A stretch of 14,939 nucleotides of DNA from a virus. Lineage: Duplodnaviria > Heunggongvirae > Uroviricota > Caudoviricetes. Position 1 is the stretch's first letter. Each line of letters opens with the position of its first letter. Positions 9,105 to 9,476 of the stretch are shown here, in pieces. The position numbers and the translations under genes are program-made. The notes under the pieces are model-generated. The model did no database searches. It had not been told where the DNA came from and saw only the letters and a list, made by a program, of their open reading frames with translations. Location of the stretch: the IMG/VR virus record IMGVR_UViG_2695420456_000009; one strand, 5' to 3'.

Positions 9105-9128
9105 CCGATATGGGAATTCCCATATCGG
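9105..9128. repeat. perfect 24-bp palindrome CCGATATGGGAATTCCCATATCGG
   Basis: Sequence is identical to its reverse complement; lies upstream of the hok locus. Confidence 0.6.
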
Positions 9129-9320
9129 GCGAAAACGGTTTGCTGTAACGGCAGAGTTAAGTAGGATTGCTGCGGGTGCTTGAGGCTATCTGCCTCGGGC
9201 ATGAACACCAACGGCAGATAGATAAAAGCCCCACCCGACTATAAATCGAAGTGAGGCCCCTATATGCTCGTCACATATAGATTGCCTCTTACGGACCGAA
9301 AGGTCAAGGAGAAGCAGGCT

Positions 9321-9476
9321 ATGAAGCAGCAAAAGGCGATGTTAATCGCCCTGATCGTCATCTGTTTAACCGTCATAGTGACGGCACTGGTAACGAGGAA
9401 AGACCTCTGCGAGGTACGAATCCGAACCGGCCAGACGGAGGTCGCTGTCTTCACAGCTTACGAACCTGAGGAGTAA
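9321..9476 (+). CDS. hokD: Hok/Gef-family type I toxin (51 aa), HokD-like
   Basis: Protein MKQQKAMLIALIVICLTVIVTALVTRKDLCEVRIRTGQTEVAVFTAYEPEE is a canonical Hok peptide. An in-frame upstream ATG at 9264 gives a 70-aa mok-like extension; an inverted repeat GCTATCTGCC...GGCAGATAG in the leader and a downstream terminator fit hok mRNA architecture. Confidence 0.9.
   Translation: MKQQKAMLIALIVICLTVIVTALVTRKDLCEVRIRTGQTEVAVFTAYEPEE

What the first reader, a model, noticed from the sequence alone, without database searches (positions are those of the whole stretch)
9105..9476. hok-type toxin locus without relBE, preceded by a perfect 24-bp palindrome
In Qin, hokD is the third gene of the relB-relE-hokD operon. 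Here the Hok ORF is intact but the upstream neighbour is the binding-protein moron and no RelB/RelE ORFs are present. A perfect palindrome CCGATATGGGAATTCCCATATCGG lies about 200 bp upstream. I could not identify a convincing Sok-like antisense promoter by eye, so whether Hok is under antitoxin control is open. The palindrome could be a regulator-binding site or a recombination scar at the moron junction.
Basis: partly seen in the sequence, partly recalled or inferred. Interest (0 to 1): 0.45.

Follow-up and report, generated by a model that had tools for sequence, protein, structure and literature searches.

The report
Ordinary prophage hok/sok toxin-antitoxin locus
This is a complete, already known type of small toxin gene (hok) with its antisense-RNA antidote (sok) in an E. 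coli O157-type prophage, and the striking palindrome in front of it is a 33-base leftover of another phage gene, not a new control element.

Summary
There is a perfect 24-bp palindrome at 9105-9128 and an intact Hok ORF at 9321-9476, 100% identical to K-12 HokD. The window has no relB or relE, and the upstream gene is the adhesin paa.

- Rfam's hok-leader model hits 9174-9323 at 103.9 bits.
- The 5' tac element pairs with the 3' fbi element.
- The mok ribosome site is sequestered in the predicted full-length fold and re-pairs with dcb when the 3' end is removed.
- The minus strand carries a Sok-type terminator hairpin.
- It also carries a promoter homologous to the experimentally tested sokW promoter. 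Its -10 has lost the first T, so Sok expression is likely but not shown.

K-12's relBE-hokD is the truncated derivative: homology starts only 14 nt before the hok ATG.

The palindrome is a fossil of a KilA-N gene, codons DMGIPISELIQ on the antisense strand. It travels with hok cassettes that lack paa, is decayed in some, and is absent from the tested hokW locus.

The paa-hok pair appears to be the adfO-ckf pair of O-island 57. Interest is low.

The parts
8227..8985 (+). paa (AcfC-family adhesin Paa, called AdfO in O157), the upstream neighbour; context only
   Evidence: RefSeq annotation of an identical locus; Pfam SBP_bac_11 at 118 bits. Found in 611 of 5426 E. coli genomes. Plasmid-borne homologues stop matching at about window 9053.
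9094..9127 (-). Fossil of a KilA-N domain gene: antisense codons D-M-G-I-P-I-S-E-(stop, formerly L)-I-Q
   Evidence: The 20-nt core plus 11 of 13 flanking nt are identical to enterobacterial KilA-N genes on the side away from hok; the hok side matches only at chance level. Intact KilA-N genes with the same core lie 548 nt upstream of hok in the same relative orientation in L048, L051, L062, L066, L123 and L126.
9105..9128 (.). Perfect 24-bp palindrome CCGATATGGGAATTCCCATATCGG
   Evidence: Predicted RNA hairpin -18 to -19 kcal/mol on either strand, with no U tract after it. Not reported by the terminator scan.
9140..9167 (+). Predicted hok promoter: -35 TTGCTG (9140-9145), 16-nt spacer, -10 TAGGAT (9162-9167)
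   Evidence: Best-scoring site upstream of the mRNA 5' end in my weight-matrix scan. Conserved with the hokW and HB6 loci, which have TAGAAT. Not detected by the stricter tool scan.
9174..9572 (+). Predicted full-length hok (mok-hok) mRNA
   Evidence: Rfam RF01794 model position 1 aligns to 9174. Terminator at 9545-9562 plus a T run. Predicted fold -166.3 kcal/mol, z = -7.5.
9174..9185 (+). tac element (GGGUGCUUGAGG)
   Evidence: Pairs with 9526-9538 in the predicted full-length fold and with ucb in the 3'-shortened RNA.
9228..9234 (+). ucb (anti-Shine-Dalgarno box, GCCCCAC)
   Evidence: Pairs with the mok SD in the predicted full-length fold and with tac in the shortened fold.
9251..9257 (+). 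mok Shine-Dalgarno region (GUGAGGC)
   Evidence: aligned with the R1-type and hokW loci.
9260..9280 (+). Sok-target hairpin (stem UAUAUG/CAUAUA, loop CUCGUCA) containing the mok start codon
   Evidence: This segment is hypervariable among 49 variants of related loci, while a stem is kept in the variants inspected by eye.
9264..9476 (+). mok reading frame (70 codons, in frame with hok)
   Evidence: ORF list. Annotated as mokW or mok in VT2-Sakai and Rac-SA53, with the same stop codon as hok.
9283..9287 (+). dcb (GCCUC)
   Evidence: Pairs with the mok SD in the centroid fold of the 3'-shortened RNA.
9321..9476 (+). hok CDS (HokD allele, 51 aa)
   Evidence: 100% identical to K-12 HokD; annotated hokD, WP_000813254.1; Pfam PF01848.
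9526..9538 (+). fbi element (CCUCAACGCACCC)
   Evidence: 12 pairs with tac and one bulged C. The tac and fbi sequences both differ from the R1-type locus while remaining complementary.
9545..9572 (+). hok mRNA intrinsic terminator
   Evidence: 7-bp GC-rich stem followed by TTTTTGTTTTTA.
9279..9307 (-). Predicted Sok promoter: -35 TTGACC (9307-9302), 17-nt spacer, -10 CAATCT (9284-9279)
   Evidence: Homologous position to the sokW -10 TAACCT. The mutagenic primer in PMC8621323 places the 'pro-less' substitutions of sokW on that element. Weight-matrix score 6.64 against 8.18 for sokW, 99.93rd percentile of the window. T(-12) is lost only in the paa-linked lineage.
9216..9272 (-). Predicted Sok antisense RNA (about 50-57 nt): 5' tail complementary to the mok start region, hairpin 9260-9228, U tract 9227-9216
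   Evidence: Hairpin -20.4 kcal/mol, z = -4.9. One compensatory C-G to U-A change relative to the hokA locus. The start point is inferred from the -10, not measured.

Best explanation
The region 9140-9572 is a canonical hok/mok/sok type I toxin-antitoxin module in the nin region of a Qin-like lambdoid prophage (the O157 'PPompW' / O-island 57 type). It most likely works as follows.

1. A weak constitutive promoter makes a stable full-length hok mRNA. Pairing of its 5' end (tac) with its 3' end (fbi) closes the molecule, and the mok ribosome site is held by ucb.
2. Slow 3' trimming removes fbi. tac then pairs with ucb, and the mok site becomes available. Translation of mok allows translation of hok, whose 51-aa product damages the inner membrane.
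3. A short, unstable antisense RNA (Sok) is made from the opposite strand. It pairs with the mok start region and leads to destruction of the trimmed mRNA, so Hok is made only when Sok synthesis stops.

What is shown by sequence and folding: every element is present and in register. What is inferred from the R1 and hokW systems: expression, toxicity control and physiological role.

The K-12 relBE-hokD arrangement is a derived form in which relBE replaced everything upstream of the hok ribosome site.

The 24-bp palindrome is not part of the hok/sok mechanism. It is a 33-34 nt remnant of a divergently oriented KilA-N gene. The peptide motif DMGIPIS is encoded by an almost self-complementary DNA sequence. 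The remnant was left at the upstream recombination boundary of this family of hok cassettes.
For: **hok/sok locus**
- Rfam RF01794 hits 9174-9323 at 103.9 bits against a gathering score of 59. The same model hits the experimentally tested hokW (113.5), chromosomal hokA (120.2) and an R1-type plasmid hok (87.2), but not K-12 relBE-hokD.
- tac and fbi are complementary (I6). They close the predicted full-length fold, z = -7.5.
- Removing 48 nt from the 3' end switches the prediction to tac/ucb and SD/dcb pairing. This is the switch described for R1 in PMC9841398.
- HokD is 51/51 identical to the K-12 protein, and no RelB or RelE is found.
- The Sok terminator hairpin has z = -4.9.
- The Sok promoter is homologous to the mutated sokW -10 and scores in the 99.93rd percentile of the window.
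- K-12 homology starts at window 9307.

**Palindrome**
- It is 31/33 identical to KilA-N genes on one side only.
- Intact KilA-N genes lie next to hok in the same orientation.
- In KilA-N genes the core varies at synonymous positions (GGG as well as GGA), as expected for coding sequence.
- The palindrome occurs in hok loci without paa.
- Among 120 hok promoters of this type it is perfect in 49, imperfect in 16 and absent in 55, including hokW.

**Literature**
- adfO (z2053) is reported to be always accompanied by ckf (z2054), a putative cell-killing factor (PMC8565820).
Against: - No expression data were available, so Sok and hok transcripts at this locus are predicted only.
- The Sok -10 (CAATCT) lacks the T at -12 that is invariant in the other 44 sequence variants of related loci. 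It fails the tool's default promoter criteria, so Sok output may be reduced.
- The hok -10 also carries a down-change (TAGGAT against TAGAAT).
- For the palindrome, window and HB6 differ at 1 of 33 fossil positions but at 7 of 44 positions just downstream. That hints at constraint or recent conversion.
- Breakpoints cluster at the palindrome's edges in several unrelated contexts. A purely neutral relic does not predict this.
Confidence: 0.8

Rival explanations
1. The locus is a decaying or silent hok copy. The lineage-specific loss of T(-12) in the Sok promoter and the weaker hok -10 mean that one or both RNAs are no longer made at useful levels, as an earlier study reported for several chromosomal hok loci.
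For: Sok -10 is CAATCT where all other variants have TAACCT, TAATCT or TAGCCT. The weight-matrix score is 1.5 bits below sokW. The hok -10 is TAGGAT against TAGAAT. A sister variant (L039) has an even weaker Sok promoter, TTGCCT-16-CAACCT, score 3.79. A preprint summarises an earlier study in which chromosomal hokA, hokB and hokC loci did not mediate killing (bioRxiv 10.1101/2025.08.07.668861).
Against: The hok ORF, mok, tac, fbi, ucb, dcb and both terminators are all intact, and the locus is at least 99% identical in more than 560 genomes. The -35 improved to TTGACC in the same lineage, and the critical A(-11) and T(-7) are kept. A dead Sok next to an intact, activatable hok should be lethal.
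Confidence: 0.2
2. The palindrome is a working cis element: an operator for a dimeric DNA-binding protein acting on the hok promoter (centre about 57 nt upstream of the predicted mRNA start), or an RNA hairpin that processes or insulates read-through transcripts coming from paa or the early operon.
For: Perfect dyad symmetry directly upstream of the -35. It is better conserved than the 44 nt that follow it between two lineages. It is retained while both flanks were exchanged in at least four contexts. The predicted hairpin is stable, -18 to -19 kcal/mol.
Against: Absent from 46% of hok loci with the same promoter, including the experimentally functional hokW (PMC8621323). Fourteen loci carry disrupted outer arms (13 share a 1-nt deletion, one has a truncated left arm) and 2 carry point mutations. 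No second copy or half-site excess in the window. No U tract, so not an intrinsic terminator. Its sequence is fully accounted for by KilA-N codons.
Confidence: 0.12
3. The palindrome is a recombination hot spot rather than a passive scar. A conserved, self-complementary stretch shared by many KilA-N genes promotes breakage or short-homology exchange, so module junctions accumulate at its edges. This is compatible with the fossil origin.
For: Different sequences abut the core directly or within 13 nt: the paa side, the small membrane ORF, L114, type B loci, and intact KilA-N. KilA-N genes in Xenorhabdus (L339) and Oscillatoria (L328) are also broken exactly at the N-terminal edge of the core. 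Relative to hokW, the HB6-type locus looks like a clean 36-nt indel of this piece.
Against: The loci were collected by searching for the intact core, which biases towards junctions outside it. The number of independent events is small (about 3-5). Twenty-four base pairs is short for hairpin-induced breakage (established knowledge, not tested here).
Confidence: 0.2
4. hok here is an orphan toxin without an antitoxin. It would be expressed only as part of read-through transcripts, like hokD in the K-12 relBEF operon.
For: The tool's default scan finds no sigma-70 site on the minus strand of 9180-9340.
Against: The complete leader with the Sok-target region is present, unlike K-12. A Sok terminator hairpin and a homologous promoter are present.
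Confidence: 0.04

Closest known systems
hokW/sokW of prophage Sp5 (VT2-Sakai), E. coli O157:H7 Sakai (PMC8621323)
   Same: About 86% DNA identity over 9132-9548. Same promoter region, tac, fbi, mok frame, hok SD, nearly the same Hok protein, and the same position of the Sok promoter. Experimentally shown to be a type I toxin-antitoxin system that depends on RNase III and Hfq.
   Different: The window's Sok hairpin module is 21 nt shorter and of the hokA type, and the Sok recognition region differs. The window has Sok -35 TTGACC and -10 CAATCT; hokW has TTGCCT and TAACCT. hokW has no palindrome upstream and lies at a different place in its phage.
hok/sok (parB) of plasmid R1 and related IncF plasmids
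   Same: Same architecture and same Rfam family. tac, ucb, mok SD, dcb, hok SD and the Sok promoter position all align. The predicted structural switch matches the published R1 model.
   Different: Hok protein and RNA sequences are diverged. Prophage rather than plasmid. Post-segregational killing was not tested here.
relB-relE-hokD of the Qin prophage, E. coli K-12
   Same: Identical HokD protein. Identical fbi, terminator and downstream genes: 84% identity over 1954 aligned positions from window 9307 onwards.
   Different: K-12 lacks the hok promoter, tac, ucb, the mok start, the Sok target and the Sok -10. RF01794 does not hit it, and relBE occupies the upstream position. The window has the complete form and no relBE.
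hokA/sokA chromosomal locus (next to glyS and cspA)
   Same: The segment 9216-9300 (ucb to mok SD, which is the Sok terminator hairpin on the other strand) is 83.5% identical to hokA loci and shares the short hairpin. One compensatory pair change is seen.
   Different: Different Hok protein, different recognition region, chromosomal backbone location.
adfO (z2053) - ckf (z2054) of O-island 57 / CP-933O in EDL933 (PMC8565820, citing Imamovic et al. 2010)
   Same: The window's paa-hok region is 100% identical to O157:H7, O145, O111 and O55:H7 chromosomes. The literature describes the Paa-like adfO as always accompanied by ckf, a putative phage cell-killing factor. This is most likely the same gene pair.
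   Different: The equation ckf = this hokD allele is my inference from position and description. The locus tags were not checked against the sequence.
KilA-N domain genes of lambdoid and other phages (Pfam PF04383)
   Same: The palindrome and 13 nt beside it match the codons for DMGIPISELIQ.
   Different: Only 33-34 nt remain, with a stop codon in frame. No domain is encoded.

Membership tests
[quoted passage not shown] | Small Hok/Gef-family membrane toxin ORF | tested here: met
   PF01848 at 81.6 bits; 51/51 identity to HokD.
[quoted passage not shown] | Conserved structured hok mRNA leader (Rfam RF01794) | tested here: met
   103.9 bits against a gathering score of 59, full-length match to model positions 1-157. 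The same model hits hokW, hokA and R1-type hok.
[quoted passage not shown] | Long-range tac-fbi pairing of the mRNA 5' and 3' ends | tested here: met
   9171-9179 and 9533-9541 are 100% complementary. A 12-bp closing helix appears in the predicted fold, z = -7.5. Both partners differ from R1 while staying complementary.
[quoted passage not shown] | mok leader ORF whose SD is sequestered by ucb and re-pairs (tac/ucb, SD/dcb) after 3' trimming | tested here: met
   mok is at 9264-9476. The SD/ucb pairing appears in the full-length fold. The tac/ucb and SD/dcb pairings appear in the shortened RNA. In silico only.
[quoted passage not shown] | cis-antisense Sok gene: terminator hairpin and U tract opposite the leader | tested here: met
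   Hairpin 9260-9228 plus UUUUAUCUAUCU, -20.4 kcal/mol, z = -4.9.
[quoted passage not shown] | cis-antisense Sok gene: active promoter | tested here: inconclusive
   TTGACC-17-CAATCT lies at the position of the mutationally tested sokW promoter. It scores in the 99.93rd percentile of the window but 1.5 bits below sokW. It is not found at the tool's default stringency.
[quoted passage not shown] | Sok-controlled toxicity or post-segregational killing | not testable with these tools
   Needs expression and killing assays.
relBE-hokD operon (Qin, K-12) | relB and relE immediately upstream of hokD | tested here: not met
   tblastn with K-12 RelB and RelE gives no hit better than E = 2. The upstream gene is paa.
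relBE-hokD operon (Qin, K-12) | hokD without its own leader or sok (5'-truncated locus) | tested here: not met
   The window has the full leader. The K-12 locus gives no RF01794 hit, and its homology begins at window 9307.
KilA-N domain gene (PF04383) | Open reading frame encoding the KilA-N domain | tested here: not met
   Only the antisense codons for DMGIPISE-stop-IQ remain. tblastn finds no convincing similarity beyond them.
KilA-N domain gene (PF04383) | Nucleotide homology to KilA-N genes beyond the palindromic core | tested here: met
   11 of 13 flanking nt match on the C-terminal side (chance about 1e-5 per comparison by my calculation). The other side is at background.
Intrinsic terminator (reading of the palindrome) | GC-rich hairpin followed by a U tract | tested here: not met
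   The hairpin is followed by GGGCGAAAACGG and is not reported by the terminator scan.
Operator for a dimeric regulator (reading of the palindrome) | Conserved with its promoter, with further sites or a cognate regulator nearby | tested here: inconclusive
   Absent or imperfect in 59% of homologous promoters. No further sites in the window. Binding cannot be tested.

The most novel reading that the evidence does not exclude
The KilA-N-derived palindrome is not a passive relic. It has been co-opted or is actively maintained at hok cassettes. It could be a protein-binding or hairpin element that couples hok promoter activity to prophage state, or a self-complementary hot spot that drives exchange of modules (such as the paa moron) next to hok. 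In combination, the lineage-specific weakening of the Sok -10 could make this Hok ('Ckf') conditionally expressed during induction, as reported for hokW.
Probability: 0.12. Interest if true: 0.4.

Novelty: already known. Interest (0 to 1): 0.13.

Why it matters
It matters little beyond tidy annotation.
- It shows that the 'hokD' of O157-type prophages is the complete hok/mok/sok module, and that K-12's relBE-hokD is a truncated derivative.
- It points out that public annotation of this locus lists only the toxin CDS, not mok or Sok.
- It explains an eye-catching perfect palindrome as a by-product of a conserved protein motif whose coding DNA is nearly self-complementary. This is a useful caution for anyone reading palindromes as operators.
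- If the weakened Sok promoter were shown to matter, it could bear on how this prophage toxin (probably the 'ckf' marker of O-island 57) behaves during induction.

Tried and rejected
1. **Palindrome as a widespread functional DNA element.**
   - The exact 20-nt core occurs in at least 120 viral contigs and in 82 stretches of bacterial genomes from many phyla, which at first looked remarkable.
   - More than half of the genome hits lie in KilA-N genes at the DMGIPIS motif, as do roughly thirty of the viral hits. Seven of the ten base pairs of the core are forced by that peptide.
   - The other hits are longer perfect palindromes in unrelated intergenic places. Among sequences that are already perfect palindromes, a given 20-mer is expected once per 4^10. 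By my rough estimate, a few dozen matches in 596 Gb are therefore not surprising. I rejected this reading.
2. **Palindrome as an intrinsic terminator of paa.** Rejected: there is no U tract, and paa has its own terminator-like hairpin at 8992-9005.
3. **Palindrome as the paa moron junction.** Rejected: the same piece sits in front of hok in prophages without paa.
4. **An extended KilA-N pseudogene around the palindrome.** tblastn gave only weak, unconvincing matches beyond the 33 nt.
5. **Further operator half-sites in the window.** None above chance. No other long inverted repeats.
6. **The tool's promoter scan for Sok.** It found nothing on the minus strand at default stringency. I replaced it with homology to sokW and a home-made weight matrix whose base frequencies are recalled from textbooks, so its scores are only relative.
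7. **The original OI-57 paper (PMC2976316).** Not held. I relied on the review PMC8565820.
8. **The mok frame as evidence of selection.** Dropped, because related loci exist with mok out of frame with hok (variants of 125 nt).

Full report
**Where the window comes from**

The 651 bases around the finding (8990-9640) are 100% identical to prophages called PPompW in Stx2a-phage records. They are also 100% identical to chromosomes of E. coli O157:H7, O145, O111, O55:H7 and others. In all, 578 of 5426 complete genomes hold the whole stretch.

An identical annotated locus (strain E2865) reads as follows: exonuclease, dicB, cI/cro-like genes, replication genes, a fimbrial pseudogene, paa, hokD, two small ORFs, DUF968, rusA, Q and two tRNAs. 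The window is therefore the early and nin region of a Qin-like lambdoid prophage.

**The observation**

- The palindrome CCGATATGGGAATTCCCATATCGG is at 9105-9128. It is perfect and unique in the window, and none appeared in 200 shuffles.
- The Hok ORF runs from 9321 to 9476 and is 51/51 identical to K-12 HokD. It matches Pfam HOK_GEF at 81.6 bits.
- tblastn with K-12 RelB and RelE finds nothing in the window.
- The upstream gene (8227-8985) is the adhesin Paa.

**Is Hok under antitoxin control?**

Rfam family RF01794 is named 'sok' but models the plus-strand hok leader. It matches 9174-9323 end to end at 103.9 bits, against a gathering score of 59. The same model hits three reference loci but not the K-12 relBE-hokD locus:

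| Locus | RF01794 score (bits) |
|---|---|
| hokA (chromosomal) | 120.2 |
| hokW of prophage Sp5 (experimentally studied) | 113.5 |
| window | 103.9 |
| R1-type plasmid hok | 87.2 |
| K-12 relBE-hokD | no hit |

Folding supports the published R1 mechanism.
- The 5' end, GGGUGCUUGAGG (9174-9185), is complementary to CCUCAACGCACCC (9526-9538).
- In the predicted fold of the 399-nt transcript these two elements close the whole molecule (-166.3 kcal/mol, z = -7.5). The mok ribosome site (9251-9257) pairs with GCCCCAC (9228-9234).
- When the last 48 nt are removed, the prediction changes. The 5' end pairs with 9228-9234, and in the centroid fold the mok ribosome site pairs with GCCUC (9283-9287).
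- This is the tac/fbi, ucb and dcb switch described for R1 (PMC9841398).
- A mok frame (9264-9476) overlaps hok. A terminator follows at 9545-9572.

On the minus strand there is a hairpin at 9260-9228 followed by UUUUAUCUAUCU (-20.4 kcal/mol, z = -4.9). Upstream of it lies TTGACC (9307-9302), a 17-nt spacer, and CAATCT (9284-9279).
- In the alignment with hokW this hexamer lies where sokW has TAACCT.
- The mutagenic primer published for the 'pro-less' sokW construct changes exactly that element, and the construct lost antitoxin activity (PMC8621323).
- In a simple weight-matrix scan of my own, the window's promoter scores 6.64. That is the 99.93rd percentile of all positions in the window. sokW scores 8.18 and the R1-type promoter 7.77.

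The predicted Sok RNA is about 50-57 nt. It would be complementary to the mok start codon and its hairpin, as in R1.

**How this copy differs from its relatives**

I found 49 distinct sequence variants of this region among the loci fetched.
- The -12 T, -11 A and -7 T of the Sok -10 are invariant in all variants except the paa-linked lineage. There the T is lost.
- In most members of that lineage a 1-nt insertion creates the better -35, TTGACC.
- The segment that forms the Sok-target hairpin is hypervariable, as expected if co-resident copies avoid cross-talk.
- The window's Sok terminator module is 21 nt shorter than in hokW. It is of the hokA type: 83.5% identity, with one compensatory C-G to U-A change.
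- The hok -10 is TAGGAT here and TAGAAT in relatives.

The locus is therefore complete, but both promoters look slightly weaker. Whether Sok is made in adequate amounts is inferred, not shown.

**Relation to K-12**

K-12-type Qin matches the window only from 9307 onwards, 14 nt before the hok ATG. The match then continues for 1954 aligned positions. K-12 keeps fbi and the terminator but lacks the promoter, tac, ucb, the mok start and the Sok -10. The relBE-hokD operon is therefore the derived, truncated arrangement. 'hok without relBE' is the ordinary state, seen in thousands of genomes.

**The palindrome**

It is not tied to paa.
- In strain HB6 and many viral contigs the same piece precedes the same hok promoter, with one outer base changed in HB6. 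The upstream neighbour there is a 34-codon membrane ORF.
- Plasmid-borne paa homologues stop matching at about 9053. Homology to non-paa loci starts at about 9090. The moron junction therefore lies upstream of the palindrome.

Its origin can be traced to KilA-N genes.
- A search for the 20-nt core in viral contigs returned many hits inside KilA-N genes (Pfam PF04383, 94.5 bits). There it encodes the conserved motif DMGIPIS.
- Seven of the ten base pairs of the core are fixed by that peptide. The other three depend on synonymous codon choice, and close homologues indeed vary (GGG or GGA, ATT or ATC).
- In six contigs an intact KilA-N gene lies 548 nt upstream of hok, on the opposite strand.
- In the window, the 13 nt on the far side of the core match the next KilA-N codons (SELIQ) at 11 of 13 positions. 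The 13 nt on the hok side match only at background level.
- Read on the antisense strand, the window gives DMGIPISE-stop-IQ.

The palindrome is therefore a 33-34 nt fossil of a KilA-N gene, in the same orientation relative to hok as the intact genes.

**Does the fossil do anything now?**

Evidence against a present function:
- Among 120 hok loci found through their promoter alone, 49 have the perfect core, 14 have imperfect arms, 2 have point mutations and 55 have no palindrome. The last group includes the functional hokW.
- It has no U tract.
- It has no partner sites in the window.

Evidence hinting at more than neutrality:
- It is better conserved between two lineages than the 44 nt that follow it.
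- Several unrelated junctions fall at its edges.

I keep a functional element (0.12) and a recombination hot spot (0.2, compatible with the fossil origin) as rivals.

**A false lead**

The same 20-mer turned up in apparently intergenic places in unrelated phages and in bacteria from many phyla. Over half of the genome hits are KilA-N genes. The rest are longer perfect palindromes. Among sequences that are already perfect palindromes, the chance of a given 20-mer is one in 4^10, so by my estimate a few dozen matches in 596 Gb need no special explanation.

**Literature**

- The review of O157 O-islands describes adfO (z2053, Paa-like) as always accompanied by ckf (z2054), a putative phage cell-killing factor whose paralogues disrupt membranes (PMC8565820). 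This is most likely the same gene pair.
- hok genes are known to be enriched in prophages (bioRxiv 10.1101/2025.08.07.668861).
- hokW/sokW has been shown to aid phage release after induction (PMC8621323).

**Verdict**

This is a known kind of system at a known locus, complete rather than orphaned. The palindrome is explained by descent from a coding sequence. Interest is low.

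Noticed in passing
window 9316-9345, minus strand: A second promoter-like site inside the start of the hok CDS: TTAACA (9345-9340), 18-nt spacer, TAGCCT (9321-9316). It scores higher (8.25) than the homologous Sok promoter in my weight-matrix scan. It lies in sequence that K-12 hokD shares, so it could give a longer antisense RNA even in K-12. Consensus match only.
   Followed up: no
window 9260-9282, and loci L002-L271: The roughly 20-nt Sok recognition / mok-start hairpin is hypervariable among 49 variants of otherwise near-identical prophage hok loci. 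Genomes carry up to 10 copies. This is consistent with diversification that prevents cross-talk between co-resident hok/sok pairs.
   Followed up: partly
window 9216-9300: The locus is a mosaic. The flanks are of the hokD/hokW type, but the ucb-to-mok-SD module (the Sok terminator hairpin on the other strand) is of the chromosomal hokA type, 21 nt shorter.
   Followed up: partly
window 9459-9462: The Tyr codon in ...TAYEPEE lies in a UACG context. A preprint reports A-to-I recoding of Tyr to Cys by TadA in hokB, and a similar phenomenon for hokC, hokD and hokE. The motif is present here; I did not examine it further.
   Followed up: no
window 2005-2056, minus strand: DicF small RNA (RF00039, 76.7 bits), with dicB annotated just downstream on the same strand in the identical locus. 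This is a Qin-type dicBF operon.
   Followed up: no
window 13626-13798, plus strand: Match to the Rfam sRNA family STnc100 (100.8 bits), downstream of the Q antiterminator gene and the tRNA genes.
   Followed up: no
window 12607-12679 and 12773-12846: Two tRNA genes, annotated tRNA-Ile and tRNA-Arg in the identical locus, just downstream of Q.
   Followed up: no
window about 7533-8066: A fimbrial-protein pseudogene (frameshift and internal stop in the RefSeq annotation) lies directly upstream of paa. The inserted 'moron' therefore looks like a fragment of an adhesin/fimbrial region rather than paa alone.
   Followed up: no
L002 2906-3010; L274 1406-1510; L003 about 1440-1505: In prophages without paa, a small hydrophobic ORF ends just upstream of the hok promoter. 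It is 34 codons (MSDDISLAMEGALAVIAVVGVYCLVVFLMDRLGN) in the HB6 locus L002, and L274 has a close variant. In the window only its last two codons and its stop survive (GAACTGA, 9091-9097).
   Followed up: partly
L274 1500-1600: A locus where the small ORF, a point-mutated palindrome and a diverged copy of the hok promoter region remain. The hok/sok body has been replaced by other DNA (IbrB-like gene).
   Followed up: partly
L275-L354 (genome contigs): The KilA-N motif ...LSxDMGIPISELVQxxKGG...QGTWVHP... is conserved from Cyanobacteria to Chloroflexi, Bacteroidota, Spirochaetes and Proteobacteria. Its DNA is intrinsically close to a palindrome.
   Followed up: partly
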